A DNA stretch of 64,000 nt from Candidatus Micrarchaeota archaeon. Its GTDB lineage: Archaea; Micrarchaeota; Micrarchaeia; Anstonellales; JAGGVH01. This document shows, piece after piece, positions 2,957-57,648 of the stretch (positions are counted from its first letter, which is position 1; every line of letters begins with the position of its first letter). The stretch covers positions 36,044 through 100,043 of the forward strand of contig JAHKLX010000007.1 in assembly GCA_020854835.1 (NCBI GenBank), written 5' to 3'. The position numbers were made by a program, and so were the translations under genes. The notes under the pieces are model-generated. The model searched no databases. It saw nothing but the letters and a program-made list of their open reading frames with translations, and had not been told where the DNA came from.

Positions 2957-5308
2957 TTACATTGTTGCTTTTTTTAACATTGTTTCTTTTCTTATCTGAT
3001 TAATCTGTGATTGCAAAGTCAGATAGCTACTGCGGTCAATAAGACCCCCTGTAACAAATCCATTTGTAAAATCAAGAATATTGTCCAATACGCGATGGAA
3101 TTCTACATCTTTTAGATTATCCGATGACAAAATATATTCATATTCATTGTTTTTTACTTTTAATCCTATTTGCAACATATTGTTTTGGCCATCATAATTT
3201 ATGGAAAAATTATTTTTAGATGCCCATAAATTTTTGACAAATTCATCGGCGTTGAAATTTTTAGTGGGAATTAAATCTTGTGTTTCAGGTTCAATTCCTT
3301 CTAATGTATCTGTTTCTTTTACATTTTGTAAGGGTTTTTGTTGAGTTGTATCAGGTCGTGGAGGAGGAGGGGGTACTCTGTACCCTTCGGGAGGGGGCGG
3401 AGGAGGAACTTCACCTATTTCCACTTTGGGCCTTTCCCCTAAAAATTCATCAGGTTGGAATTTTTTAGTTGTAGAAGTTGCAGGAATTTTTTCAGTTTGT
3501 TTAACAACCTGCTGCTGACCTATGTAAAGTGGGGGAGTGTAACCTAAAAATCTTTCAAAATCAACTAACGCCCTCTCACATTCTTCAATATTTAATGTTG
3601 TTGAAGACCAGTATCTTAAATAATCATGAAAACTATCAAGAGTGTCCTTTAGATTTTCTTTTCTCATCACGTCTAAACCTGCAAACATTTTGATATCTTC
3701 AAAATCAAAAACATGATTTATTCCGTTTAAATCAGTTATAGTTAAAGTATGTGTTTCTTGGTTAAAATTAAATGGAAAAATACCAGATTCTATTGCGTCC
3801 TGTGCATAACCTAACGCAGTTTCAAAATCATATAACCTTTGGTGTACATCAGTTGTTTTTTTTCTTGCTGTGATTTGTCGAACATTACTGATTAATTTTT
3901 GTCTTTCAGTTTCTGGAAGTCTTCCTTTTAATATATTGAAAAGTTTAGTGATTTCCTCATTGGAAAGTGATGAAATCGTTTCATCGTTTATTGTGAATTC
4001 TCTTGTTGAATTTATTGCTGCCCCTGGAGAATATGATAATCTCAAAACGGGATATCCCTGGTCATTATAGAAAATTTCGGTCGATTTCTTTCCAGATGCA
4101 CTTATTCTATCTTGAAGATACATAACCCTGTAAACTTCATCTATATTCTTGTCCGATAAAATATTCTGTTTGAGTATATTGGTTGGCGATAAAGTAGCAG
4201 ACGCGGCCGAAGGACCTGCAGTTTGTGTTTGGGGAAAGGGGAGATGCGATTTTATTTTGTTGATAAACGCAGAATCCAATGAATATCCCAAAACAGTTTC
4301 TAATTCTGATAAATTTTCTAAAAGTTTTTGAGCACCGAACGAATTCAAAGTTTTTTGATCAATAATATAATCATAAACTGTAAGGTTTGCATCACCTTTG
4401 CGAGTAGGTGGTTGGGGCACGTGAATATGCAACCAGCCATTAGAATCATAATTTATCGAAACCTCGCCCCGATTATATTCCCTTGAGCTTTTTATATCAA
4501 ATAACATGAGCTCAAAATGTCGCGTATTTGTAACCGAATTTAATAGATACAATGTCTCAGTTTTTTGCTTAGGTTCTGGAGTTTCCTTGGGAGCTTCGGT
4601 CCAATATAATTGAGGGAGATCTTCTTCAGTTATTTTTGGTTTAATAGTATCGGGAGAAGCAACCCATTCTTGATTTAATGAAGAGGGTCTTTCTTGGGAT
4701 ATATTTGAATTACCGTTTGTTGCGTGATATAAAGTTCCATCTTCTTCAGGAGCATGGAATAATTGTTCAGCAACAAACTCTGGAGATATTGATTCTGTGG
4801 AATTTGTTGAATCTTTTTTTTGTGTATTATCTATATATGCGGGTGTGGCCGACAATTCCTGTTTTATTTCAGTTGCATGTTCTTCAAGCTTTTGATTCGA
4901 CCAGGTAGAATAAAATGCATAAACATTCGGGGAATTTTGCAAAGCTTGGTCCATAGTTCCCCCATCAAGAAGAACTTTTATTGTTTGATCAACTTTGGTT
5001 TTCCCAATCGCATACCCATAATAATACCACTCCAAGGTAAGAGCAGTTTTAACTTTTTCTTGTTCTGTAGTTGTTAAACCTACAAACTCAGGAATTGTAC
5101 TCATTAAAGTGCATGCTCGAACGTATGATTCTGTTAATTTTGTTGTTATGTTTTCGGGTGTTGACTTGGAAAACACTCTTGAATGAAAAGAATCATTTGA
5201 TAAAAAATTCTGAAGACTTTGAATGAAATTTTTGTTTTGTTCAAATTCATTTACATTTAAATTTTTAAGTTGGTTTTCCCAATAATTTTCTATCTTAAAA
5301 TTTCCCAT
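2957..5308 (-). CDS. Large orphan protein with internal repeated modules and polyproline tract
   Basis: 783-aa ORF with AGGTGA SD; PPPPPPEGYRVPPPPPRP; no recognised family. Confidence 0.75.
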   Translation of the reverse strand: MGNFKIENYWENQLKNLNVNEFEQNKNFIQSLQNFLSNDSFHSRVFSKSTPENITTKLTESYVRACTLMSTIPEFVGLTTTEQEKVKTALTLEWYYYGYAIGKTKVDQTIKVLLDGGTMDQALQNSPNVYAFYSTWSNQKLEEHATEIKQELSATPAYIDNTQKKDSTNSTESISPEFVAEQLFHAPEEDGTLYHATNGNSNISQERPSSLNQEWVASPDTIKPKITEEDLPQLYWTEAPKETPEPKQKTETLYLLNSVTNTRHFELMLFDIKSSREYNRGEVSINYDSNGWLHIHVPQPPTRKGDANLTVYDYIIDQKTLNSFGAQKLLENLSELETVLGYSLDSAFINKIKSHLPFPQTQTAGPSAASATLSPTNILKQNILSDKNIDEVYRVMYLQDRISASGKKSTEIFYNDQGYPVLRLSYSPGAAINSTREFTINDETISSLSNEEITKLFNILKGRLPETERQKLISNVRQITARKKTTDVHQRLYDFETALGYAQDAIESGIFPFNFNQETHTLTITDLNGINHVFDFEDIKMFAGLDVMRKENLKDTLDSFHDYLRYWSSTTLNIEECERALVDFERFLGYTPPLYIGQQQVVKQTEKIPATSTTKKFQPDEFLGERPKVEIGEVPPPPPPEGYRVPPPPPRPDTTQQKPLQNVKETDTLEGIEPETQDLIPTKNFNADEFVKNLWASKNNFSINYDGQNNMLQIGLKVKNNEYEYILSSDNLKDVEFHRVLDNILDFTNGFVTGGLIDRSSYLTLQSQINQIRKETMLKKATM

Positions 5309-9007: not shown

Positions 9008-9025
9008 TTTTTCACCTATAAAAAA

Positions 9026-9099
9026 CGGGTCCGAAGGGATTTGAACCCTTGGCCTACTGGTTAAAAGCCAGCCGCTCTACCAAGCTGAGCTACGGACCC
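9026..9099 (-). tRNA. tRNA-Lys(UUU), intron-less, no encoded CCA
   Basis: Reverse complement GGGTCCGTAGCTCAG...GCTGG CT TTT AA CCAGT...GGTTCAAATCC...CGGACCCG folds as a cloverleaf. Confidence 0.97.
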
Positions 9100-9195
9100 A
9101 CAAAAAAAGACAATAAATGTTTTAGTTTGGTTAAATAATTAAGGAATATATTTAAAAAGCTCACCGTTGATTTTATGTAAAATGATTATAGAGGG

Positions 9196-10023
9196 ATGTT
9201 TATGTTAATTCTACCAAAACAAAGAGAAGCATATTGGATAGCAGTAGGAATTGGTGGATTTGGAGTAATTGTAGGACTTGTAGGAGGAGGACAAATATTG
9301 TCATTCATAGGGCTGCTTGCTGCAGGTTTAGGTGCGGTATTATCCCTATTAATTTATCAATACGGGTATTTGATTGTTCCTATTTTTACTAAATTTTCAA
9401 GAATTGTAGTTGTAACTCCAGATAAAGAATATGAGATACCTCCTTCACAAGATGTTATTATTAAAAAAACAGGAGATTCATACTACGCAACAAAATTTTT
9501 GGGAGTTCAGATTTTTGAATCCGCAGCTGAAAAAAGCACCGAGGAAAATGTAACTTACATGCTCGCTTTTGAACGTGCAATTTCATCTGTAAAACATGTA
9601 ACAAAGTTTTCAATGATGGTTTATGTTTTAGATATAACAGAAAAAAAGAGAGATATTGAAACAAGAAAATATGAAGCACAACTCAAGCTGGCAAAACAAA
9701 GAGAAAAAGGTCAAGATATGGATGTGCTTTTAATTGATAAATACGAACATGAAATATCAATGTGGGAAAAAGAACTTGAAAAAATCTCAAGAGGTGAAAA
9801 ACCTATGGCAGTTGTGGCGTATATTATGACAACTGCAATCGGGGTTTCAAAAGAAGCTGCCATGGCCGCTGCAAATGGACAAGCAAACGAAATACGTGCA
9901 TCAGTTTCTAATGCACTTAATGCAAAAATAGAAATCATGAAAGCAGATGATATGCTTAGGTGCTTCCAGTGGGAATATCTTCTCCCAGTGTCATATGCAG
10001 AATGGAAACAGCAGGTTGATTAA
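9196..10023 (+). CDS. Membrane protein with coiled coil, possible VirB3/VirB4-N-terminal-like partner of the ATPase
   Basis: Two Gly-rich TM helices, alpha/beta region, charged coiled coil; 2 nt upstream of the ATPase gene. Confidence 0.6.
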   Translation: MFMLILPKQREAYWIAVGIGGFGVIVGLVGGGQILSFIGLLAAGLGAVLSLLIYQYGYLIVPIFTKFSRIVVVTPDKEYEIPPSQDVIIKKTGDSYYATKFLGVQIFESAAEKSTEENVTYMLAFERAISSVKHVTKFSMMVYVLDITEKKRDIETRKYEAQLKLAKQREKGQDMDVLLIDKYEHEISMWEKELEKISRGEKPMAVVAYIMTTAIGVSKEAAMAAANGQANEIRASVSNALNAKIEIMKADDMLRCFQWEYLLPVSYAEWKQQVD

Positions 10024-10025
10024 AT

Positions 10026-11600
10026 ATGGGATGGTTAAAAATACGAGATATATCTAATATTACTCTCGCAAGAAGAAATATTCTAGTTAGACCTCCTGAA
10101 CCCCCTCCAGAAATGCTCTGGTCCGATCCCAGTAATTCCATATTCACTGGAAAAACTAAAATATTTAACATACCCTTTTATTGGAATTATAATGAATTAA
10201 CAAATCCTCATCTGGCAATAGTCGGAATAACAGGTTCAGGTAAATCATATTTCATTAAAACTTTTTTAACCCGTGCAGCTTTGGTTTGGGACAGCAATGC
10301 ATTTATTATTGACTGGGCAGGAGAATACCGAGAATGGGTTAAATCTGCAGGAGGAACAGTTATCTCACTTGGAAAAGGATCTTATATTAATTTGTTGGAT
10401 ACTGGAGGAATGACTCCAAATAATAGAATCAAACAAATAATAAGAACTCTTGAAATATTGACAGATATAAATCAATATCCTGAACAAAAAAGATTAACTG
10501 AATTGGCAATAGAAGAAGCTTATAAAAAAGCTAATTTCAAAATGGATTCTATAGTTCAAAAAGACAGTTCTGGAACTGAATTGATTGCCCCAACATTGAA
10601 AGATGTTGTTGAAAATTTAGAAAAAACTTACAAAAGGGGAGGATATGAATATCCTGCCGAACTGCAAAATTCTATTTACAGATTGAAACAATACACAAAA
10701 ACAGGTCAAGATTTTTTTGCACAACAAAGCACTCTTGATTTAGATAAATTAACAAATTCGGGTTTAGTATCACTGGATTTGTCAGGTTTGCCAGATGAAA
10801 TATTTAGAGCGTTGGCTGCCCTTTCAATGCTCCAATTCATTAAAGAAAAAATGAGGGCAGCAGGCTGGAAAAAGAGAAAAGGAATTCAACTATTTGTTGT
10901 GTTGGATGAAGCTTGGAAAATTGCAGGAGATGAAAACAGTGATGCAGTTATGATAGTTAGAGAAGGTCGTAAATATAATTTTAGTTTGATTGTTGCGAGC
11001 CAGAACCCAACAGATATTAATGAGGCAATATTTTCAAACGTAGGAACCACATTCGTATTTAAAGTTAAATTTGAAAGATATTTGAATTATATACAAGGAA
11101 CTTTAAACTTCAGTGATTTCATTCGAGAAGAAATTTCAAAATTGGGTGTTGGACAATGCGCAGTCAATATGGCTTTTACCACGAGTGCGAATTATCCATC
11201 AACTTTTCTAGTTCAGAAAATTGAAGGTGAAGAACCTTTGGTAGAATACTTCCTTGATGTTGGCAGTGTGCTCACTGAGGAAGAAAGGAGGGATGTAAGA
11301 GTGGCAAGAAGTGTAGCAATTGAAAGAGAAGAGATGAGGAAGAGGCTTAGAATGTATGGTCTCAATGAATCTCAGCTTGAAGAAATTTCATCTCTTTTTG
11401 ATAAGAAAAATAAACATATTGACATAGTTTCATTTGTAATTCTTTTACAGAGATATGGATTAGCACGAAACAAAATAACAGCATTGTTAAAAGATTTTGG
11501 TGTTGCAGATTCAACAATCATCAACATCTTTATTAAAGCTGACTTTAAAGTTCATTCGGCGACAAGCCAGGATATTATGGATATTATTTTAGAGGAATAG
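10026..11600 (+). CDS. VirB4/HerA/FtsK-superfamily ATPase (DUF87-like)
   Basis: NPHLAIVGITGSGKS Walker A, IIDWAGEY, VVLDEAW Walker B, REGRKY..LIVASQNP. Confidence 0.9.
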   Translation: MGWLKIRDISNITLARRNILVRPPEPPPEMLWSDPSNSIFTGKTKIFNIPFYWNYNELTNPHLAIVGITGSGKSYFIKTFLTRAALVWDSNAFIIDWAGEYREWVKSAGGTVISLGKGSYINLLDTGGMTPNNRIKQIIRTLEILTDINQYPEQKRLTELAIEEAYKKANFKMDSIVQKDSSGTELIAPTLKDVVENLEKTYKRGGYEYPAELQNSIYRLKQYTKTGQDFFAQQSTLDLDKLTNSGLVSLDLSGLPDEIFRALAALSMLQFIKEKMRAAGWKKRKGIQLFVVLDEAWKIAGDENSDAVMIVREGRKYNFSLIVASQNPTDINEAIFSNVGTTFVFKVKFERYLNYIQGTLNFSDFIREEISKLGVGQCAVNMAFTTSANYPSTFLVQKIEGEEPLVEYFLDVGSVLTEEERRDVRVARSVAIEREEMRKRLRMYGLNESQLEEISSLFDKKNKHIDIVSFVILLQRYGLARNKITALLKDFGVADSTIINIFIKADFKVHSATSQDIMDIILEE

Positions 11601-12143
11601 GTGGTTCATATGGATTTGTTTAAATTGTTTAAAGGAAAAGAAAAAAAAGAAAAGACATTTGAAAATTTTGATGTTAAAAATTCAAATGTTTGTATGGAAT
11701 GTGGAAAAATAGTTATTCCATCTAAAGCTGTACCAGTAAAGGATGACTTTGTGTTGAATGTTATCAAATCCATAAAACAAAAAACAAAAACAATAAAAAA
11801 CAACAAATTATTTATATGTCCAAGTTGCTGGCCAGAATATGAAAAAAACAGAAAAAGATTTGTAAATGGAGTATTTTTCTGGAGTGTTTTGCTAGGGGTT
11901 TTTTTAGTAGTGTTATTGGTAACTCCTTTGTTAACTCAGAATTCATATCCGCTACTTAATGTTGTTTTTCTGTTGTTGGGAATTTTTGCATTTTGGGTGC
12001 TTTTAATGATCATGCAAATTTATTCTTCATATAGGCCCGGAACTGAATTTGATATTAAAAACCTTAAAGAATACACTCCTAGCAAGAAAAAAAATATTGT
12101 GGCAAAAGCTAAAAAATCAAAGAAAAAGAGGGTGAAAAAATGA
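11601..12143 (+). CDS. Zinc-binding membrane protein
   Basis: CMECG...CPSC pair, two TM helices, basic tail. Confidence 0.7.
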   Translation: MVHMDLFKLFKGKEKKEKTFENFDVKNSNVCMECGKIVIPSKAVPVKDDFVLNVIKSIKQKTKTIKNNKLFICPSCWPEYEKNRKRFVNGVFFWSVLLGVFLVVLLVTPLLTQNSYPLLNVVFLLLGIFAFWVLLMIMQIYSSYRPGTEFDIKNLKEYTPSKKKNIVAKAKKSKKKRVKK

Positions 12144-12916
12144 GTGGTCTGCCATTCCCAGGAAAACCTCAGCAAAAACAAGATAAAAAAAAGGTTAAAG
12201 ATGAAGTTAAAGAACCCCTTGTAGAGGGGTTTGAAATACCTGGAAAAAGATTGGGTTCCTCACAAGATATATTGCAGTCTTTATCACAAGTCTCATACAT
12301 TCAAACAATTGTTGATAAAGAAGATTATGTGATATTGAACGTTGAAAGCAGAGACCTAACCAATAAACCATATCTATTTTCAATAATTCACTTAAAACCA
12401 GATACTATTCAGGTTCTTTACACTGTAACCCCTGGAATGAGTCCTAGGAAAAGAAGAGTAGATATATTAAGATATTTTTTTACGGTTTTATCCATGGTTA
12501 GTGAATATTACGAAATCAGAATGGCAGTGGTTTATCAGCTTTTTGAAGATTCTATAGATAAAATTAGTGAATATGTGACGTTAGATTATGAAGAAATGTA
12601 CGCCAGATATGACTCCATAAAATCAGAAAATGAAAGATTGAAATCAGACATTGCAAAAATAAGTGAAACTAGCCGAGAAATATCAAAAGAAAATTACGAT
12701 CTTAAAACTAAAATTGACGATCTTAAAATAAAGCTCGATAGGTTGAGCAAACACAGTGACGATTCACTTAAAGTAAGATTAATGGAATGGATAAATGAGC
12801 ATCAGGGAGAAATAAATGTTCCTGAAGTTGCAAGAATGTATTCAGTGCCTGATGCAAAAATAGAAGAACTCCTTAATGAATTAATGAGAGAAGGATATTT
12901 GAAATCTATAAGTTAA
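12140..12916 (+). CDS. Coiled-coil protein with C-terminal winged-helix-like domain
   Basis: Heptad region followed by GEINVPEVARMYSVPDAKIEELLNELMREGYL. Confidence 0.7.
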   Translation: MSGLPFPGKPQQKQDKKKVKDEVKEPLVEGFEIPGKRLGSSQDILQSLSQVSYIQTIVDKEDYVILNVESRDLTNKPYLFSIIHLKPDTIQVLYTVTPGMSPRKRRVDILRYFFTVLSMVSEYYEIRMAVVYQLFEDSIDKISEYVTLDYEEMYARYDSIKSENERLKSDIAKISETSREISKENYDLKTKIDDLKIKLDRLSKHSDDSLKVRLMEWINEHQGEINVPEVARMYSVPDAKIEELLNELMREGYLKSIS

Positions 12917-12930
12917 CTGAGGGATAATAA

Positions 12931-15321
12931 TTGAAAATAAAAATCAAAAAACAAACATATAAATTTCAGATGAAAAAACCTTTTAGTTATCGTAAAAGAT
13001 TTACAAAAATTAAAGATTTTGTTAAAACTCCGATGGAGATTATAAAAGAAAAGATATCTGGAATAACTCCAAAAACGATTGTGATGTCAGGCATATTCCA
13101 GATACTTGTTTTGTTGATCGGATTTATATATATTGTCATAGGTGCAGCACCTTTTTTTACACCTTCCGAAACATTGTCCTCAAGCTCACCACCCTATTCA
13201 CTCGAGCAGTGGATAGGCCATGAAAAAATAATTAATGATTTAACCTATATGGAAACTATTTCATATCTTGGAAGTTCAAATGATATCAAACATACTTTTG
13301 CTTTGTATGGTCCTAGCAACTATACAATACGGACATCGAAAAATGGGGTCCCTTCAGTTATCTATTTTTTAGAAGTTCCTAATCAGAGATATTCATCTGG
13401 GATGCTTTCTGGAAAAGACTTATTCAAAGAATTACTAAAAGTCAAATTAAAAAACAATGGATACACCCTCATATCAATCGGTATCGAGGATATGCAAAGA
13501 TTAAAAAACGATGATGTAGTCGTCGCACCCACAGGATATTTTCCTGTTGAGTTCGCAAATAATTTAAAAACTACTATGATATTTATTGGTTCTGATATAA
13601 GGGGAGTAGATATTGATATTGAAGAAAAAGGCGCCCAGAGTGGAATAAGATCATCTAAATTAAACATATATAATGCCAGATATCTGATACGATCACCAAC
13701 AAAAAAAACATATGGGGATGTTATCGATATGTTTGAATATGATGAAGGCAAAATTGTTACAGTTCCGGGAGAATTTGAAAACGGAAGAAATTGGAATTCA
13801 ATTGATGATGCAGTTGACGATGTTGTTAAAATAATTACAGAATCACCTTGGGATGAAGTGTATGGAAATAGATATATAACTGAGGGAGTGTTGGGATTTG
13901 GCTCGGAATTTAGTGGTGACGAAGCTTATTTTTTAATTAAAAATGACGAAGGAAAGATTATAAGCTCGGGAAAAGGAGTAAGTAAAAATAGTTTGAGAGT
14001 GTATACGGCTACAAAAAACATCCCGCCCTATGGAATACATCGAAGCAGAGATGAGATATTTATTAAACCTGAAAAAATGTTTTTATCGAATGAAGAAGTT
14101 GGGAGGTATAGGGGAGAAGTTTATACTGCTCCACCTGTTGAATCCTCGCCAGTAAAAATTGCATCGATAACTACTTCAGAAATTGTTGTGGAAAACCGAA
14201 GAGAACCCTTTTTCGGACCAGGGAATTATTTGTTGGTAATATCAGATGGCCCAGTAACTGCGGGCAAGATTGGCACAATACACGGATTTACGGTTGTCGA
14301 ACCAATTATAAGCATCAACCCCAATCCTGAAACAAATACCCATATAATAACTATAGCGTGCGGAGATAGATGTGATGTTTTTGATTATGATTCAGTTGTT
14401 GTTTATATAGATGAAAAACAAGTTGGAAAATTCCAGAACAATGAAAAAACAATAACCTTGAGAGATCTTAAAATAAATCCTGAAAATCATGTGTTGACAT
14501 TAGGATTTGTTAGAGCAGATGGGAGAGAATATAGAGTTTCCAAAGAATTTTATGTTCAAAGTGTTGGACTCGACCAGTATCTAAATAATCCGATATATCT
14601 CGTTGTTGGATCAATTTTGGTGATTGTAGTTGCAGCTGCAATACAACTCAGAAGAAAGGATAAAATTGTTTATAATTTAGATATTCCTGATTTCCCACCC
14701 CTTTCTAGAATAACTGTACCATTGAAAAAAAGTACAGTAATTTCTTTGTTTGACAAGATAAACAAAGAATATGGTTGGCATTATTTGCCAATATCAAGCG
14801 AGGAATTCCAAAGTGCATTGATGAGGCTTTCTTATAGGGGAAGACCAATAAGCGCCAGCATAAATAATATTGAAAGAATATTGGATTTGTTGTGTTCAGA
14901 GGGTTATGCAAAAGTGTATAATGAGTATTACGGACTAAGCAGATGGGAAGAAGAATTAGGTATAAGTATTAAACACCTATCAATATTAAGAAAACTAAGA
15001 GATTTGTTTATAAACAATGTTCTGAGATTCGAGCCTTTTGGAACAATAAAACATTCTGATACAAAAATATACATATCTGGAAATGAATATTATGTTATTT
15101 TATTCAAAAATGCCAAAGACACCATACTGAATTCTATTGGTCCCCTATCTGAAGAAAATGTGATTATAATATTTGAAAGTACATATCAAAAAGATGAATT
15201 TCTTGAAACGCTTTATTCCAAAGACAATGAAGTTTTGGCATTCAAATTAGAATTGAATTCGCATAGAATAAAAACTTTCACAATTGAAGAGTTTGAGAGC
15301 TTTGTTAAAAGTGAGAAATAG
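12931..15321 (+). CDS. Large membrane protein (2 TM, big extracellular region, ~220-aa cytoplasmic tail)
   Basis: Hydrophobic segments near residues 55-75 and 555-573; last gene of the five-gene run. Confidence 0.7.
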   Translation: MKIKIKKQTYKFQMKKPFSYRKRFTKIKDFVKTPMEIIKEKISGITPKTIVMSGIFQILVLLIGFIYIVIGAAPFFTPSETLSSSSPPYSLEQWIGHEKIINDLTYMETISYLGSSNDIKHTFALYGPSNYTIRTSKNGVPSVIYFLEVPNQRYSSGMLSGKDLFKELLKVKLKNNGYTLISIGIEDMQRLKNDDVVVAPTGYFPVEFANNLKTTMIFIGSDIRGVDIDIEEKGAQSGIRSSKLNIYNARYLIRSPTKKTYGDVIDMFEYDEGKIVTVPGEFENGRNWNSIDDAVDDVVKIITESPWDEVYGNRYITEGVLGFGSEFSGDEAYFLIKNDEGKIISSGKGVSKNSLRVYTATKNIPPYGIHRSRDEIFIKPEKMFLSNEEVGRYRGEVYTAPPVESSPVKIASITTSEIVVENRREPFFGPGNYLLVISDGPVTAGKIGTIHGFTVVEPIISINPNPETNTHIITIACGDRCDVFDYDSVVVYIDEKQVGKFQNNEKTITLRDLKINPENHVLTLGFVRADGREYRVSKEFYVQSVGLDQYLNNPIYLVVGSILVIVVAAAIQLRRKDKIVYNLDIPDFPPLSRITVPLKKSTVISLFDKINKEYGWHYLPISSEEFQSALMRLSYRGRPISASINNIERILDLLCSEGYAKVYNEYYGLSRWEEELGISIKHLSILRKLRDLFINNVLRFEPFGTIKHSDTKIYISGNEYYVILFKNAKDTILNSIGPLSEENVIIIFESTYQKDEFLETLYSKDNEVLAFKLELNSHRIKTFTIEEFESFVKSEK

Positions 15322-20310: not shown

Positions 20311-20703
20311 ATGTTAAAAAAAATAAGTTTAGTTGTTGTAGTTATGATGCTCATGTTTTATGGGCTTGCGTTTGCTCAAGATGTTTTGGCACAAACATTA
20401 GTGGGCCTATGCGATGATTTGATGGGTTTGGTAGGGCCCTTAGCATATTTATTAGTTGTTTTCGCTGCATTGGTTTATTTGGCAGGCCAATTTGGTGATG
20501 CCCAAATGAGAGCTAAAAGCAGTGTTTGGGCACAGTCTTGTATATTTGGTGCAATTATAGGTTGGGCAATAATCACAATAATTCCTTATATTTTAGCTGC
20601 CTTGTTAAAAGCAAGCGGAGTTAGTATGGGAACTGCCTGTTCAGGGATTGGTACTGCCGGACGCCCTTGTAGTGATATAATACAAAATCAATTCTGTAAT
20701 TAA
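20311..20703 (+). CDS. VirB2/TrbC-like pilin
   Basis: Sec-type signal ending AFA, two hydrophobic helices separated by GDAQMRAKS; no class III signal peptide. Confidence 0.65.
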   Translation: MLKKISLVVVVMMLMFYGLAFAQDVLAQTLVGLCDDLMGLVGPLAYLLVVFAALVYLAGQFGDAQMRAKSSVWAQSCIFGAIIGWAIITIIPYILAALLKASGVSMGTACSGIGTAGRPCSDIIQNQFCN

Positions 20704-20712
20704 GGTGATTAA

Positions 20713-22086
20713 TTGGGGTTGGGATGGCATATTGAAAAAACTGGAGAATATAAAATCAACCTGCCCATTTTAAGCGATGACGAAATTGAAGCTATAAAGC
20801 ACATGGCAAACATGTTCAAAGAAGTTACCAAATACAAAGAACTTGACAATCCTGACAAAGCAAAAAAAGAACTTAAAAATCTTTTGATTAAATTCTGCGA
20901 CAAGGAAGGAATTGTAATTGACAAAGAACAAGAGAATTATTTAACACAAATGGCTTTTTATAATATTTATGGGTTTGCAGGCATGGAAGAAATACTCAAG
21001 GACGAAGAAATAGAAGAAATTGGAATAATTGGTTTGGGCAAGCCAGTTTATGTTTTTGTTAGAAAACAAGGGTGGAAAAAAACAAATTTATATTATGATG
21101 AATTAGATTTTACAATTAACTTGATTAATAAAATGTCAAGAAGCATTGGGAGAAGGATAACTTATAAAAATCCTAGATTGAATGCTGTTCTTCCTGACGG
21201 TTCAAGAATGCACGCATCTATTCCCCCAATATCCAATGTGGAAGTGACAATCAGAAAATTCAAAGAAAATCCAATGACTGTGTTTGATTTGTTGAATTAT
21301 CACACAATTTCTGAAGAAGCAATGGCCTTATTATGGTTTTTAATGCAGGCAGATATATCTATTTTGATAACAGGAAACACTGCAAGCGGAAAAACAACCA
21401 CAATGAATTCTATTTTCTCATTTGTTCCTTTAAATGAAAGAATTTTAATAACAGAAGAAACTCCTGAAATAAACATACCTCACAAACATGTCGTTAAACT
21501 TGTAGCAAATCAGGAACTTGATATAAGTTTGTCTCCTTTGGTTGCAGATTCGCTTAGGATGAGACCTGACAGAGTTATTGTTGGAGAAGTTAGAAATACT
21601 GAAGAGGTTCATGCATTAATGGATACTATATTGAGTGGACAAGCAAGAGGAAGTTATGCAACTTTTCACGCACAGTCATCAAAAGAAACCTTGTCTAGAT
21701 TAAGATCCTTGGGAGTTTTGGAAATTGATCTGCCTTCGATTGATATAATTGTAATCCAAAGAAGAATGATGAAATATAATGTTAAAACAAGAAAATCCGA
21801 AGAGATTAGAAGAATTGTTGAAATAGTAGAAGTTGATAAAAACAATCCTGGAAAAACAACTCCCCTTTTCATATATGATTATGAAAAAGACAGTTGGAAA
21901 GCAGATTATCAAAATTCAGAGATTTTGAAAAGATTGTCTCTTTCACTAGGAGTTCCGCAAAAAGAAATGGAAAACGAAATAAAAACACGAACAGAATTCT
22001 TAAAGAAAAATATAAAAAAGAAATGGAATTTTGAAACTGCTGTAAACGAAATTCAAAAGTTTGCCTACGGGCTTTCGTTAGATTAG
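20713..22086 (+). CDS. Type II/IV secretion ATPase (TadA/CpaF/VirB11 family)
   Basis: LPDGSR, TIRKF, GNTASGKTT, EETPE, LRMRPDRVIVGEVR, TFHA. Confidence 0.95.
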   Translation: MGLGWHIEKTGEYKINLPILSDDEIEAIKHMANMFKEVTKYKELDNPDKAKKELKNLLIKFCDKEGIVIDKEQENYLTQMAFYNIYGFAGMEEILKDEEIEEIGIIGLGKPVYVFVRKQGWKKTNLYYDELDFTINLINKMSRSIGRRITYKNPRLNAVLPDGSRMHASIPPISNVEVTIRKFKENPMTVFDLLNYHTISEEAMALLWFLMQADISILITGNTASGKTTTMNSIFSFVPLNERILITEETPEINIPHKHVVKLVANQELDISLSPLVADSLRMRPDRVIVGEVRNTEEVHALMDTILSGQARGSYATFHAQSSKETLSRLRSLGVLEIDLPSIDIIVIQRRMMKYNVKTRKSEEIRRIVEIVEVDKNNPGKTTPLFIYDYEKDSWKADYQNSEILKRLSLSLGVPQKEMENEIKTRTEFLKKNIKKKWNFETAVNEIQKFAYGLSLD

Positions 22087-22094
22087 GTGAACTG

Positions 22095-23855
22095 ATGAAA
22101 GAATGGGTTGTGAAAATATCAAATAGATTCGGAAAAGGAATAGGAAATGCCTTTTCAAAAGAAGCAAGAACTAAAATAAACAAAAATCTTGAAACTGCAA
22201 ATATGAATGTTTCAGCAGAAAAATATCTTTCTTTTGGAATACTGCTTGCTTTTATTTCTGCAGTTTATTTTGGAACTATATCTTTTTTTATTTTGAATGA
22301 TTTTGTTTGGACAATAATAATTGTTCTTTTATCTTTTGTTTTGATTTATGTTGCAGTGAAATTTTATCCAGGTTTTGAGGCAAAGAGAAGAGGAAAACAA
22401 ATTGAAGCAGAACTTCCCACAGTTTTAAGAATGGTGGGAATACAGTTGGATATTAATATTCAGTTTGAAAAAATTATTGAAAATTTGGCAAACGAAGATT
22501 ATGAGGTTTCAAAAGAATTTGGCATTGTGTTCAGAGAGATTGGTTCAGGTGTTTCAATACCTCTTTCTCTCCAGCACATGACAGACAGGGTTGAATCTGA
22601 AATATTTAGCAGAACTGTAAACCAATTAGTTATGAATTATGAAAAAGGAGGAAAAGGCGGCGAACTTAAAAGAGTTGCAAATCAATTAGCAGAAATGCAA
22701 GTATCTGAACTTAAAGCTTTTGAATCAAAAATGGCTTTTACAGGACTTATATTTATTGCAGTTTCATGCTTGATGCCTGCTTTTTTCCAAATATTTATAG
22801 CAATAGGTGGAATTTTGGGAAATGTATCTGTAAGTTCATTACATATTTGGATAATCTTTGTTTTTGTGTTTCCAGTAATCAGCCTTATTGCTTTGCTTTT
22901 CATAAATATTTCAACTCCACCGATTGCAACTATGCACAAATCAACGTTTGAAAAAGATTTGATAATTATCCAAAGGTTTATGAAAGAGAAAAAGTGGATT
23001 ACGATAACAGATGAAAACGATGCTTCGCCAGTTAAAAAACTCGGAATCAAATTTACTATAGGGGCAGGAATAATTGCAGTTATTTTTCTTATAGGTGGAT
23101 TGATGTTCCATGATGCATTTTATGTATTGTTTTTTGTTTCTTTGGTATCCCCTTTCGTATCATATTTTTATTTCCTATTTTTGGCAGAGGACAGAATACT
23201 TAAAATGGAAAAAAAGCTTCCTGAAGCACTTACACACGCAGCAATGCTTCAAAAAGGAATGAGCACCGAACAAATTATTGGTGAAATGAGCAAACAAAAA
23301 GGACCGCTCGGAAATGAATTTAAAATTGCTTACAGACAAATCTCAGCAGGAGCAGATGTTGAAAGTTCACTTATGGCAATAGCAGAACGAAATAATTCAC
23401 TCCTTATCAAAAGGGCTGTTAAATTGATAATACATGGATACTATGCTGGAGCAGATATGTATTCTGCATTGAGGGAAACGGCAGAGGATATATACTCTTT
23501 ATTTATATTGATATCACAACGAAAATCTGTTCTTGCTTTGCAAAAATATACTCTTCTTTTGGGGGGAGCTATATTGGTGCCTTTAATTTTGGGGAGTATT
23601 CTGCAAGTGGTTGGTTCATTGAATACACACGGATTGGTGTCTGTTTTAACAGATAAAGAAATAACAGACACAGCAGATATATTAGAGACCATTAAGTCTG
23701 CAACATTTGTATATCTAATGATATTTAGTATTATATCTGGGATTATGATTGCACAACAAGAGGGAGAATCAAAAAAAGCAATAGTTTATGCAGTAATTAT
23801 TGTTATTTGTGCAGCAGTGTTATACACATTGGCGCTTAGCTCAAAAATAATTTGA
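22095..23855 (+). CDS. T2SSF-family platform protein (TadB/TadC/ArlJ-like, two GspF domains)
   Basis: Two repeats (IEAELP...SKEF and MEKKLP...GNEF) each flanked by TM helices; follows the ATPase. Confidence 0.88.
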   Translation: MKEWVVKISNRFGKGIGNAFSKEARTKINKNLETANMNVSAEKYLSFGILLAFISAVYFGTISFFILNDFVWTIIIVLLSFVLIYVAVKFYPGFEAKRRGKQIEAELPTVLRMVGIQLDINIQFEKIIENLANEDYEVSKEFGIVFREIGSGVSIPLSLQHMTDRVESEIFSRTVNQLVMNYEKGGKGGELKRVANQLAEMQVSELKAFESKMAFTGLIFIAVSCLMPAFFQIFIAIGGILGNVSVSSLHIWIIFVFVFPVISLIALLFINISTPPIATMHKSTFEKDLIIIQRFMKEKKWITITDENDASPVKKLGIKFTIGAGIIAVIFLIGGLMFHDAFYVLFFVSLVSPFVSYFYFLFLAEDRILKMEKKLPEALTHAAMLQKGMSTEQIIGEMSKQKGPLGNEFKIAYRQISAGADVESSLMAIAERNNSLLIKRAVKLIIHGYYAGADMYSALRETAEDIYSLFILISQRKSVLALQKYTLLLGGAILVPLILGSILQVVGSLNTHGLVSVLTDKEITDTADILETIKSATFVYLMIFSIISGIMIAQQEGESKKAIVYAVIIVICAAVLYTLALSSKII

Positions 23856-57502: not shown

Positions 57503-57506
57503 GTAT

Positions 57507-57602
57507 GGGGCCGTAGTGTAACCTGGTCATCATGCCAGCTTGGGGATGTTTTTTAAAAACAACAAAATGCTGGTGATTTGGGTTCAAATCCCAGCGGCCC
57601 CA
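57507..57602 (+). tRNA. tRNA-Pro(GGG) with 22-nt intron at 37/38 (57546-57567)
   Basis: GGGGCCG/CGGCCCC acceptor, CCAGC TT GGG G|intron|T GCTGG, GGTTCAAATCC. Confidence 0.93.
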
Positions 57603-57648
57603 TATTTACGGGGTCAAGTATTTGGCCACTCGAACATGAGGTGAAAAC

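What the first reader, a model, noticed from the sequence alone, without database searches (positions are those of the whole stretch)
9196..15321. Five-gene membrane operon around a VirB4/HerA-type ATPase: candidate DPANN secretion or DNA-transfer machine
Seen: five co-oriented genes with gaps of 2, 0, -4 and 14 nt. They encode a 2-TM coiled-coil protein, a VirB4/HerA-type ATPase with an extra ~110-aa C-terminal domain, a CxxC/CxxC 2-TM protein, a coiled-coil/winged-helix protein and a 796-aa 2-TM protein with large outer and inner domains. No relaxase, integrase or nurA/mre11/rad50 is nearby, and the flanks are housekeeping genes. Known: VirB4-family ATPases power T4SS and the crenarchaeal Ced DNA-import system (CedB). 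Inference: a chromosomal, domesticated translocation or host-contact apparatus whose four accessory subunits match no family I recognise.
Basis: partly seen in the sequence, partly recalled or inferred. Interest (0 to 1): 0.85.

Follow-up and report, generated by a model that had tools for sequence, protein, structure and literature searches.

The report
Split VirB4/CedB secretion-like machine in Micrarchaeia
This five-gene operon encodes a membrane motor related to the engines of bacterial conjugation and archaeal DNA uptake, split into two genes and kept almost unchanged in nearly all relatives of this tiny symbiotic archaeon, so it is probably central to how these cells exchange material with other cells.

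Summary
Five co-oriented genes at 9196-15321 have gaps of 2, 0, -4 and 14 nt and the described architectures.

The organism is a Micrarchaeia (DPANN) archaeon, going by the source names of close homologues.

All five genes lie in the same order in 34 of 34 loci fetched from several orders. Gene 1 was missed in one of them. The ATPase is found in 134 of 151 genomes of the phylum. It is more conserved (58-67% identity) than CTP synthase (46-51%).

The new result concerns gene 1. Its soluble domain has the fold of the VirB4 N-terminal domain (TrwK 218-383, Z 12.6 and 9.6). Thaumarchaeal relatives carry gene 1 and gene 2 fused in one protein, which the CedB model covers end to end. Genes 1 and 2 are therefore a split VirB4/CedB motor, not a repair HerA.

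Sister orders and a paralogous locus add polytopic membrane proteins and two-helix pilin-like genes. No relaxase or integrase lies nearby.

Best reading: a domesticated, Ced/Ted-like, T4SS-derived translocon. The substrate, DNA or protein, is inferred.

The parts
9131..9195 (+). Putative promoter and leader. It holds an AT-rich TATA-like stretch (about 9147-9158) and a GAGGG just before the ATG.
   Evidence: Read directly from the sequence. The function is inferred. It lies in the 95-nt gap after the divergent tRNA-Lys at 9025-9100.
9196..10023 (+). g1: membrane anchor and N-terminal half of a split VirB4/CedB. It has a two-helix TM hairpin followed by an alpha/beta domain with the VirB4 N-terminal-domain fold.
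   Evidence: AF2 model, pLDDT 87.7. The top 9 Foldseek hits are all TrwK/VirB4, with E from 1.4e-3 to 1.8e-2. VIA-align: residues 75-275 match TrwK 219-383, Z 12.6, rmsd 2.9, 153 aligned. It is rank 1 of 48,161 chains, Z 9.6, 164 aligned. A g1 profile hits the N-termini of 8 of 8 fused ATPases.
10026..11252 (+). g2 core: FtsK/HerA-superfamily P-loop ATPase of the VirB4/CedB type. This is the motor.
   Evidence: DUF87, AAA_10 and TraG P-loop. CedB 75.8 bits, CedD 73.7, VirB4 70.6, HerA 51.7, all far below their cut-offs. Walker A and B are invariant. It is found in 41 of 41 relatives.
11253..11600 (+). g2 C-terminal helical domain of about 115 aa. In other lineages it also occurs as a stand-alone ORF of 98-109 aa right after the ATPase.
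   Evidence: Stand-alone copies occur in 11 of 34 loci and were aligned. No significant solved-structure match by sequence. Function unknown.
11601..12143 (+). g3: cytoplasmic CxxC...CxxC zinc-ribbon-like head followed by a two-helix TM hairpin and a Lys-rich tail.
   Evidence: It is present between g2 and g4 in 34 of 34 loci. No family reaches its cut-off.
12140..12916 (+). g4: soluble alpha/beta N-domain, coiled coil and C-terminal winged helix.
   Evidence: HTH_IclR 6.9e-5. A profile hit to the winged helix of archaeal ESCRT-III (2xvc), E 2.2e-4. It is also conserved in the paralogous g1'-g2'-g4' triad, in 14 of 15 loci.
12931..15321 (+). g5: two-TM protein. Its fast-evolving part between the helices holds a flavodoxin/GATase-like domain and two Ig/FN3-like sandwiches. 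Its conserved cytoplasmic part holds a winged helix and an alpha/beta domain.
   Evidence: AF2 model, pLDDT 76.2, with over 90 in residues 600-796. FN3/Ig hits at E about 1e-5. Residues 141-308 give Z about 10 to GH42/ThuA-like domains. Across the order only residues about 545-794 stay alignable. No sequence family for the cytoplasmic part.
20311..20703 (+). Possible in-trans part: a small secreted two-helix protein with VirB2/TedC-like pilin topology.
   Evidence: PF18895 T4SS_pilin, E 1.6e-4, 22.1 bits, below the 26.6 cut-off. The sequence shows a signal peptide and two hydrophobic helices. The family is multi-copy in 41 of 41 relatives. Its link to the operon is inferred.

Best explanation
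The operon encodes the core of a domesticated, chromosomal, relaxase-less machine derived from type IV secretion systems. It is of the same kind as the archaeal Ced and Ted DNA-exchange systems.

Shown:
- g1 and g2 together are one VirB4/CedB-type ATPase cut in two. g1 supplies a two-helix membrane hairpin and the VirB4-type N-terminal domain. g2 supplies the P-loop motor.
- The five genes form a fixed unit in nearly all Micrarchaeia sampled and are under very strong constraint.

Inferred:
- g2 forms a ring at the inner face of the membrane, held there by g1.
- g3 (zinc ribbon plus TM hairpin), g4 (coiled coil plus winged helix) and the cytoplasmic domain of g5 sit around it.
- The Ig/FN3-bearing outer part of g5 reaches the cell surface and contacts a partner cell.
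- Polytopic membrane proteins and small two-helix pilin-like proteins provide the channel and a filament. They are encoded in the same operon in sister orders and next to the paralogous motor, and elsewhere in this genome.
- ATP hydrolysis then drives a polymer across the membrane, most likely DNA taken up from a host or neighbour cell, as in Ced.

My odds: T4SS-derived membrane translocation machine, about 0.8. DNA as the substrate, about 0.4 to 0.45. The confidence given for this explanation (0.45) is for the whole statement, DNA included.
For: Fold of g1:
- The soluble domain matches only VirB4 over its full length. Foldseek ranks 1-9 are all TrwK.
- VIA-align gives Z 12.6, rmsd 2.9, 153 aligned to TrwK 219-383.
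- In the exhaustive search it is rank 1 of 48,161 chains, Z 9.6, 164 aligned. All other top rows cover only a 58-residue hairpin.

Fused relatives:
- In 8 of 8 relatives where the ATPase starts near residue 240-300, the first ~255 residues match a g1 profile, E 1.5e-13 to 1e-5.
- The CedB model aligns to positions 51-587 and 75-587 of its 590 in two of them, at 126 and 144 bits.
- CedB is the top curated profile in 10 of 10 family members tested.

Conservation:
- Each of g1 to g5 is found in 41 of 41 genomes of the order.
- 34 of 40 relatives have all five on one contig in order. The other 6 are cut by contig ends (my reading of the coordinates in those calls).
- 34 of 34 fetched loci from several orders keep the order. 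g1 was missed in one, L055.
- The ATPase is in 134 of 151 genomes of the phylum. This count includes one unpublished genome, G060.
- g2 is 58-67% identical across the order, against 46-51% for CTP synthase.
- Inteins sit at Walker A or Walker B in some orthologues.

Extra T4SS-like parts:
- 9 of 14 loci from other orders have one or two polytopic membrane genes directly upstream.
- 9 of 15 paralogous loci have such a gene directly upstream of g1'. In 4 of these an 81-125 aa two-helix hairpin ORF lies upstream of it.
- PF18895 T4SS_pilin hits these small ORFs weakly, E 0.016 in 2 of 4, and hits the window's own small gene at E 1.6e-4.

Not mobile:
- No integrase or relaxase among 19 flanking ORFs.
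- No plasmid relative above 30% identity among 148 matching records.

Context from papers:
- Ced and Ted are VirB4 + VirB6 + VirB2 derivatives that import DNA (PMC9905601, passages read).
- CedB and CedD carry parts of the VirB4 N-terminal domain (PMC11868833, abstract and section 9 read).
Against: - All curated VirB4, CedB and CedD profile scores are far below their cut-offs (75.8 against 700 bits for CedB).
- Against solved structures, the g2 sequence profile scores HerA-type defence ATPases higher (73 bits) than a VirB4 domain (55 bits), although over a shorter stretch.
- No Foldseek hit for g1 reached E<=1e-3. Z 9.6 is only a little above the helical-hairpin rows at Z 8.8.
- g1 covers only TrwK 218-383, not the whole N-terminal domain.
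- The polytopic proteins have no sequence link to VirB6/TrbL: no Pfam hit at E<=1, TrbL and TrbL_3 do not ring on them, and hhalign probability is 0.1 against a TrbL-positive protein of the same assembly. Only weak Atlas leads exist: a CedA1-domain cluster at 0.87 and a TrbL_3 cluster at TM 0.41, both under the bar.
- The pilin assignment is below the Pfam cut-off.
- In this genome the channel and pilin candidates are not in the operon.
- Nothing shows DNA binding. The winged helices may bind protein; the best hit of the g4 one is the ESCRT-III winged helix.
- 17 of 151 genomes, including five whole families, lack a hit at E<=1e-15.
Confidence: 0.45

Rival explanations
1. It is the same T4SS-derived machine, but the substrate is protein or pilin rather than DNA. 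The machine would build a surface filament or adhesive contact, or deliver or extract proteins at the symbiont-host junction. This is what has been proposed for the relaxase-less chromosomal T4SS of Patescibacteria and for nanohaloarchaeal giant proteins carrying a VirB4/TraG-like domain.
For: - The g5 outer part holds Ig/FN3-like domains and diverges fast while its inner domain is kept. This pattern suits partner-specific contact.
- Pilin-like genes are multi-copy in 41 of 41 relatives.
- In this genome and in G001 the paralogous motor sits beside giant proteins: 1486 aa plus a Cys-rich protein here, 1689 aa in G001.
- No relaxase, coupling protein or nuclease is in the operon.
- Papers: the Patescibacteria T4SS lacks a relaxase and is essential for epibiotic growth (PMC12102498, abstract and passages read). 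The nanohaloarchaeal giant proteins run Ig repeats, TM, VirB4/TraG-like ATPase, coiled coil (PMC10266531, passages read).
Against: - The nearest characterised family by profile is CedB, a DNA importer.
- The fused relatives lie in thaumarchaeal MAGs, one beside an integrase, which suggests conjugative ancestry.
- No effector candidates were identified.
- VirB4 is needed for both pilus assembly and transfer in known systems (recalled), so this reading and the best one are not mutually exclusive.
Confidence: 0.3
2. It is an FtsK-like, membrane-anchored DNA pump for chromosome segregation or cell division. g4 would link it to the division apparatus.
For: - Near-universal presence and very strong conservation, as for a housekeeping function.
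- g2 belongs to the FtsK/HerA superfamily: FtsK_SpoIIIE Pfam hit at 27.3 bits on the P-loop region.
- The g4 winged helix resembles that of archaeal ESCRT-III, E 2.2e-4.
Against: - g1 has the VirB4 N-terminal-domain fold, not an FtsK membrane domain.
- The CedB profile covers the fused relatives end to end.
- Polytopic and pilin-like genes are linked in sister and paralogous loci.
- g5 has a large extracellular Ig/FN3 part.
- A second paralogous set exists in most genomes.
- The ESCRT-III hit is weak and covers 43 residues.
Confidence: 0.08
3. It is a HerA-type helicase for double-strand-break repair or anti-phage defence, with membrane neighbours by coincidence.
For: - DUF87 'HerA central domain' is the best Pfam hit, 5.3e-17.
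- HerA-type defence ATPases are the best sequence hits among solved structures.
- Some database sources name orthologues HerA.
Against: - No NurA, Mre11, Rad50 or nuclease gene is nearby.
- HerA models score lower than CedB, CedD and VirB4 models.
- Only about 45 residues precede the ATPase core in g2, and the N-terminal partner has the VirB4 fold.
- The genome has a separate HerA-like gene on another contig, with HerA models on top at 168 bits.
- The fixed operon with three membrane proteins is kept in 34 of 34 loci.
Confidence: 0.03
4. It is the transfer module of an integrated conjugative element or plasmid.
For: - The fused relatives occur in thaumarchaeal MAG contigs, one directly beside a tyrosine-recombinase gene.
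- A tRNA gene lies directly upstream of the operon.
Against: - The operon is present in the same order, in syntenic housekeeping context, across the class.
- No integrase or relaxase is nearby.
- Composition equals that of the flanks.
- It is more conserved than CTP synthase.
- There are no close plasmid relatives.
Confidence: 0.02

Closest known systems
Ced system of Sulfolobales (CedB/CedD ATPases with CedA, CedA1, CedA2)
   Same: - It is chromosomal, has no relaxase and is built on a VirB4-family motor.
- CedB is the best curated profile for g2 and its relatives.
- The motor's N-terminal part has a VirB4 N-terminal-domain fold, as reported for CedB and CedD (PMC11868833, section 9 read).
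- Small two-TM and polytopic membrane partners are present.
   Different: - Scores are far below the CedB equivalog cut-off (75.8 against 700 bits).
- The motor is split into two genes.
- g3, g4 and g5 have no Ced counterpart that I could detect.
- The candidate channel and pilin genes are not in this operon and show no sequence link to CedA or CedA1.
- The lineage is mesophilic DPANN.
- Induction by UV and DNA import are untested.
Ted system of Thermoproteales (TedB VirB4-like, TedA VirB6-like, TedC VirB2-like pilin)
   Same: A minimal pilin, polytopic protein and VirB4 module. The paralogous loci here read small two-helix ORF, polytopic protein, g1', g2', g4'.
   Different: No sequence similarity to Ted parts was tested, because no named references were at hand. 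There are no ParA, HerA or Rad50 neighbours. Extra subunits g3, g4 and g5 are present.
Bacterial VirB3-VirB4 inner-membrane complex (TrwM/TrwK of plasmid R388)
   Same: The g1 soluble domain superposes on TrwK residues 218-383. g2 aligns to VirB4 profile positions from about 420 onward. A two-helix membrane hairpin precedes the VirB4 part, as VirB3 does; the existence of VirB3-VirB4 fusions is recalled, not tested.
   Different: The first ~217 residues of the VirB4 N-terminal domain have no counterpart. The protein is split at the domain boundary. No VirB6, B8, B10, B11 or D4 homologue was detected by sequence. The system is not on a plasmid.
Chromosomal relaxase-less T4SS of Patescibacteria
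   Same: It is the analogue in ultra-small symbionts: a VirB4 system present in most genomes of the group, without a relaxase, and proposed to have been co-opted for the epibiotic lifestyle (PMC12102498, abstract and passages read).
   Different: That system is bacterial, belongs to the MPF-FATA class and has a full-length VirB4 with recognisable partners. This one is archaeal, CedB-like and split, and its partners have no family.
Nanohaloarchaeal giant 'SPEARE' proteins with a VirB4/TraG-like ATPase domain
   Same: Both are DPANN. The domain order along one polypeptide there (surface Ig repeats, TM, ATPase, coiled coil) mirrors the gene order here at the paralogous locus (giant protein, g1', g2', g4') (PMC10266531, passages read).
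   Different: No sequence comparison was made, because no SPEARE sequence was at hand. Here the parts are separate genes, and the main operon has no giant protein.
HerA-NurA repair helicase
   Same: It has an FtsK/HerA-superfamily P-loop core with a DUF87 hit.
   Different: It has no NurA, Mre11 or Rad50 neighbours. Its front half has the VirB4 fold and is membrane-anchored. HerA profile scores are lower.

Membership tests
VirB4 family (T4SS ATPase) | C-terminal FtsK/HerA-superfamily P-loop ATPase domain with intact Walker A and B | tested here: met
   DUF87, AAA_10 and TraG P-loop hits. G67, G70, G72, K73, S74, D294 and E295 are invariant in 41 sequences.
VirB4 family (T4SS ATPase) | VirB4-type N-terminal domain | tested here: met
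   It is supplied in trans by g1: TrwK 218-383, Z 12.6, rmsd 2.9, 153 aligned, and Z 9.6, 164 aligned, rank 1 of 48,161. Coverage of the domain is partial. PF03135 (CagE_TrbE_VirB) does not ring on it at E<=0.1.
VirB4 family (T4SS ATPase) | Reaches the curated score of a VirB4 model | tested here: not met
   TIGR00929 gives 55.5 bits against a cut-off of 643. NF045975 gives 70.6 against 590. NF045971 gives 67.1 against 325.
VirB4 family (T4SS ATPase) | Encoded with VirB6-like channel and VirB2-like pilin genes | tested here: inconclusive
   Polytopic and two-helix small genes are adjacent in 9 of 14 other-order loci and 9 of 15 paralogous loci. They have no sequence link to TrbL/VirB6. PF18895 hits are only sub-threshold.
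CedB (Ced DNA importer ATPase) | Reaches the equivalog cut-off of NF041017 | tested here: not met
   g2 gives 75.8 bits against 700. The best relative (P0162) gives 143.8 bits. CedB is nonetheless the top profile in 10 of 10 members tested.
CedB (Ced DNA importer ATPase) | Membrane-anchored N-terminal domain and ATPase in one polypeptide | tested here: not met
   It is split into g1 and g2 in all 34 loci. Fused forms exist in Thaumarchaeota.
CedB (Ced DNA importer ATPase) | Imports DNA between cells, induced by DNA damage | not testable with these tools
HerA repair helicase | Operon or neighbourhood with NurA, Mre11 and Rad50 | tested here: not met
   No such hit among 19 flanking ORFs at E<=1e-3.
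HerA repair helicase | Reaches a curated HerA model cut-off | tested here: not met
   NF040937 gives 51.7 bits against 800. NF040819 gives 38.5 against 970.
HerA repair helicase | N-terminal HAS-barrel domain (feature recalled from the literature, not from a call) | not tested
   g2 was not folded. Only about 45 residues precede the first profile-matched position.
Conjugative element T4SS (mobile) | Relaxase, coupling protein or integrase nearby, and patchy distribution | tested here: not met
   None in window 1-26000. Present in 41 of 41 genomes of the order and 134 of 151 of the phylum. All plasmid matches are below 30% identity.

The most novel reading that the evidence does not exclude
This is the core engine of the Micrarchaeia-host junction. 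It would be a class-wide, near-essential nanomachine derived from type IV secretion. Its split VirB4/CedB motor, new cytoplasmic adaptors (g3, g4) and a fast-evolving surface adhesin (g5) would open a conduit through which these genome-reduced symbionts take DNA, and so nucleotides and genes, from their hosts. It would be the archaeal counterpart of the Patescibacteria T4SS, and g5 would set host range.
Probability: 0.25. Interest if true: 0.9.

Novelty: new variant of a known kind. Interest (0 to 1): 0.72.

Why it matters
How DPANN archaea draw on their hosts is an open question, and no dedicated transfer machine has been pinned down for Micrarchaeota. My four full-text searches found no paper describing a T4SS-like system in this phylum. 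The library holds only open-licence papers, so a description elsewhere cannot be excluded.

This work gives a defined gene set that is present in most Micrarchaeia, is more conserved than a core metabolic enzyme, and is tied by fold and by fused relatives to the VirB4/CedB motors that move DNA. That makes the question testable in the existing Micrarchaeum and Mancarchaeum co-cultures: localise the proteins, deplete them, and follow DNA or protein transfer.

It also extends domesticated archaeal T4SS derivatives (Ced, Ted) from thermophilic Thermoproteota to a mesophilic DPANN class. It shows a VirB4 split exactly at the boundary between the N-terminal domain and the ATPase. It adds three conserved subunits of no known family as targets for structural work.

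Tried and rejected
- Complex prediction of g2 with g4: no verdict (score 0.00, mark 0.32). It says nothing either way.
- Sequencing runs: no RNA holder listed, only DNA runs of sludge metagenomes.
- ESM Atlas for g5: no usable hit and no model.
- g5 cytoplasmic domain by profile against solved structures and Pfam: nothing significant. In the fold searches the Ig/FN3 and flavodoxin-like domains filled the lists, so the cytoplasmic domain is barely tested.
- g2 C-terminal domain against solved structures: only weak helix-loop-helix look-alikes, best E 7e-4 to a designed protein. Rejected.
- Polytopic family against TrbL_3 and TrbL in the whole genome and by hhalign against the TrbL-positive 701-aa protein of contig C121 (probability 0.1): no link.
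- PF27251 (CedA1) is not in the local Pfam.
- Two NCBIfam accessions that I guessed might be CedA models (NF041016, NF041015) turned out to be unrelated families.
- g3, g4 and g5 profiles against the 291 collected proteins and against the thaumarchaeal loci: no hits. The C-terminal ~250 residues of the fused forms are not detectably g4.
- Named reference sequences for a CedB/VirB4/HerA/FtsK tree could not be obtained: control genomes give no loci and plasmid hits are distant. No tree was built.
- Makarova et al. 2014 on archaeal 'dark matter' (PMC4158269, passages read) describes new secretion loci built on other ATPases, not this one.
- Supplementary files of papers were not consulted. The VirB4 lists in the supplements of PMC12102498 and PMC11868833 might include Micrarchaeota sequences.

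Full report
**1. What is in the sequence**

Five ORFs lie on the + strand:
- g1, 9196-10023 (275 aa)
- g2, 10026-11600 (524 aa)
- g3, 11601-12143 (180 aa)
- g4, 12140-12916 (258 aa)
- g5, 12931-15321 (796 aa)

The gaps are 2, 0, -4 and 14 nt. A tRNA-Lys gene on the other strand ends 95 nt upstream. That gap holds an AT-rich TATA-like stretch and a GAGGG before the ATG (the promoter role is inferred). The operon ends against a convergent TYW3 gene. G+C is level with the flanks.

Among 19 flanking ORFs in window 1-26000 there is no relaxase, integrase, NurA, Mre11 or Rad50 hit at E<=1e-3. The neighbours are housekeeping genes.

**2. Whose genome**

Orthologues of g2 at 63-68% identity carry source names such as Micrarchaeota, Micrarchaeia, Anstonellales, Gugararchaeum and Bilamarchaeum. 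The window lies on contig C30 of a 2.04-Mb, 145-contig assembly rated 87% complete and 5.6% contaminated.

**3. Conservation**

Within the order:
- Each of the five proteins is found in 41 of 41 genomes of the order, G000 included. They span 12 families and 26 genera.
- From the coordinates in those calls, 34 of 40 relatives have all five complete on one contig in the order g1 to g5. In G004 and G014, g5 is adjacent but inverted.
- In the other six (G002, G005, G006, G012, G016, G029) contig ends cut the cluster, and the pieces found fit the same order.

Across orders:
- I fetched 34 loci, 20 from the same order and 14 from other orders of the class. I searched their ORFs with the five window proteins.
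- g2, g3, g4 and g5 are present in 34 of 34 loci and g1 in 33 of 34 (not found in L055), always in the same order.

Across the phylum:
- 134 of 151 sampled genomes have the ATPase at E<=1e-15. Five families have no hit in 10 genomes, and a sixth has hits in only 2 of 8.
- This tally includes one unpublished genome, G060. Without it the count is 133 of 150.

Degree of constraint:
- The ATPase is 58-67% identical across most of the order (52% in G039, 84% within the genus).
- CTP synthase from the same window is 46-51% identical across most of the order and was found in 37 of 41 genomes.
- Some orthologues carry inteins (Intein_splicing plus LAGLIDADG). They sit right after Walker A in L049 and P0123, and right after Walker B in P0124.

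Rates differ along the operon. Within the genus, g2 is 84% identical, g1 72%, g4 71%, g3 44% and g5 43%. Across the order only the last ~250 residues of g5 stay alignable.

**4. The ATPase and gene 1**

g2 has DUF87, AAA_10 and TraG P-loop hits. Its weak best curated hits are CedB (75.8 bits), CedD (73.7), a VirB4 model (70.6) and HerA (51.7). All are far below their cut-offs and all match only the C-terminal ATPase part of those models. Sequence alone does not decide the family. Against solved structures, HerA-type defence ATPases score above a VirB4 domain, 73 against 55 bits, though over a shorter stretch.

I therefore asked whether g1 is the missing front half. An AlphaFold2 model built from 45 sequences (pLDDT 87.7) shows two TM helices and an alpha/beta domain at 72-275.
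- Foldseek's first nine hits are all TrwK/VirB4 of plasmid R388, with E from 1.4e-3 to 1.8e-2. None reaches 1e-3.
- VIA-align places residues 75-275 on TrwK 219-383, with Z 12.6, rmsd 2.9 and 153 aligned.
- In an exhaustive comparison with 48,161 chains, TrwK is rank 1 with Z 9.6 and 164 aligned. Every other top row aligns only a 58-residue helical hairpin.

Independent support comes from fused relatives. In a library of 1.84 billion representatives, 2206 proteins match g2 at E<=1e-3.
- In 8 of them the ATPase domain starts at residue ~240-300. A g1 profile hits the N-terminal ~255 residues of all 8, with E from 1.5e-13 to 1e-5.
- For two of these, the CedB model aligns over positions 51-587 and 75-587 of its 590, at 126 and 144 bits.
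- CedB is the top curated profile in 10 of 10 members of this family tested.
- Three other ATPases of the same assembly have other top hits: a CD1110-family VirB4 at 1037 bits, a VirB4-like protein at 293 bits, and a HerA-like protein at 168 bits.

The fused forms lie in Nitrosopumilales and Thaumarchaeota MAG contigs. One sits directly beside a tyrosine-recombinase gene.

So g1 and g2 are one VirB4/CedB-type protein, split at the boundary between the N-terminal domain and the ATPase. Wu et al. report that the N-terminal domains of CedB and CedD superpose on different parts of the VirB4 N-terminal domain (PMC11868833, abstract and section 9 read). g1 likewise covers only part of it.

**5. The other subunits**

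- g3 has a CxxC...CxxC head, a TM hairpin and a Lys-rich tail. The four Cys are kept in 32, 25, 27 and 18 of 35 sequences. No family was found.
- g4 has an alpha/beta N-domain, a coiled coil and a winged helix. The winged helix hits HTH_IclR at 6.9e-5 and the archaeal ESCRT-III winged helix 2xvc at 2.2e-4.
- g5 (model pLDDT 76.2) has a basic N-terminus, then a TM helix. The part between the two helices holds a flavodoxin/GATase-like domain (residues 141-308, Z about 10) and two Ig/FN3-like sandwiches (352-545, Foldseek E about 1e-5). After the second TM helix comes a confidently modelled cytoplasmic winged helix plus alpha/beta domain of no detectable family.
- The last ~115 residues of g2 form a helical domain. 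It also exists as a stand-alone ORF after the ATPase in 11 of 34 loci. Its fold family is unknown.

**6. Parts outside the five genes**

- In 9 of the 14 loci from other orders, one or two polytopic membrane proteins are encoded directly upstream on the same strand. They run 226-541 aa, with at least 4-8 hydrophobic segments. This occurs in 0 of the 20 loci of the same order.
- In 11 of 34 loci g1 is tandemly duplicated.
- This genome has tandem arrays of the polytopic family on contigs C117 and C5.
- Most genomes also have a paralogous triad g1'-g2'-g4'. In this genome it is on contig C22, where g2' is 47% identical to g2.
- Among 15 such loci, 9 have a polytopic-family gene directly upstream of g1'. 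In 4 of those, an 81-125 aa ORF with two hydrophobic helices joined by a short charged loop lies just upstream of it. This is the order pilin, VirB6-like, VirB4 described for Ted (PMC9905601, passages read).
- PF18895 (T4SS_pilin) hits 2 of these 4 small ORFs at E 0.016. It hits a small signal-peptide protein in the window (20311-20703) at 1.6e-4. All are below the cut-off. That family is multi-copy in 41 of 41 relatives.

The assignment of the polytopic proteins as VirB6/CedA-like rests on position and topology, plus two sub-threshold Atlas leads. Every sequence test failed.

**7. Reading**

Shown:
- a split VirB4/CedB motor with a membrane anchor;
- a fixed five-gene unit under strong constraint across a class;
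- chromosomal, non-mobile context.

Inferred:
- a ring motor at the membrane with g3, g4 and the inner domain of g5 around it;
- the outer domains of g5 at the cell surface;
- a channel and a filament made of the polytopic and pilin-like proteins;
- transfer of a polymer.

I favour DNA uptake as the function, at about 0.4-0.45. The nearest characterised family imports DNA, the fused relatives look like conjugative-element genes, and two subunits carry winged helices. None of this shows DNA handling. A role in protein or pilin handling for host contact is nearly as likely (0.3), by analogy with the relaxase-less T4SS of Patescibacteria (PMC12102498) and the nanohaloarchaeal giant proteins (PMC10266531). 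FtsK-like segregation, HerA-type repair and a mobile element are unlikely for the reasons given under the rival explanations.

**8. Novelty**

My four literature searches found no description of a T4SS-like system in Micrarchaeota. The library is limited to open-licence papers and preprints, and supplements were closed.

The kind of system is known: a domesticated archaeal T4SS derivative. New here are the split motor, the three conserved subunits of no known family, the second paralogous set, and the near-universal presence in a DPANN class. I rate it a new variant of a known kind.

Noticed in passing
L049:7485-10628 (-); proteins P0123, P0124: Orthologous ATPases of 1026-1196 aa carry inteins (Intein_splicing plus LAGLIDADG) at two different sites: right after Walker A and right after Walker B.
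   Followed up: yes
G000 contig C22, locus L008:7054-14706 (-): A paralogous g1'-g2'-g4' triad (ATPase 47% identical) is preceded on the same strand by a 1486-aa protein and a Cys-rich protein of at least 440 aa. G001 has a 1689-aa protein at the same place. The order recalls that of the nanohaloarchaeal giant ATPase proteins.
   Followed up: partly
G000 contigs C117 (L064:7274-18011 +) and C5 (L065:7025-14176 -): Two tandem arrays of six to seven paralogous polytopic membrane proteins with no Pfam family. They are homologous to the genes that sit upstream of the operon in sister orders.
   Followed up: partly
window 20311-23855 (+): A pilin-like small gene is followed by a T2SSE-family ATPase (2e-37) and a T2SSF-family membrane protein (1.5e-13), 5 kb downstream of the operon. 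This recalls the pairing of Ups pili with Ced. The linkage is not kept in relatives, where the pilin orthologues lie on other contigs.
   Followed up: partly
G000 contigs C119, C102, C121 (L009-L011): These contigs carry bacterial-type T4SS genes: PrgI, a CD1110-family VirB4 at 1037 bits, lysozyme/CHAP, a TrbL hit, an M23 peptidase and BREX genes. The assembly is 2.04 Mb against 1.0-1.2 Mb for the two genomes of the same genus. It may be a mixed bin or hold a foreign element.
   Followed up: partly
L066:6992-11212 and L067:6986-9727: Thaumarchaeal fused g1-g2 proteins have an extra C-terminal ~250 residues with no Pfam family. One gene lies beside a Phage_integrase gene.
   Followed up: partly
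G000:C31:26546-27385 and similar places in relatives: The conserved cytoplasmic domain of g5 recurs in other proteins of about 560-730 aa elsewhere in these genomes. Some have an in-frame TGA.
   Followed up: no
window 57506-57603 (+): ARAGORN calls a 98-nt tRNA of undetermined type with a four-base anticodon, 'gggg'. It may be a tRNA with an intron.
   Followed up: no
window 2957-5308 (-): A 783-aa ORF with no Pfam family at E<=1e-3.
   Followed up: no
relatives G011, G019, G024, G039: CTP synthase was not found with the window's protein at E<=1e-30 in these four genomes, which are 88-98% complete.
   Followed up: no
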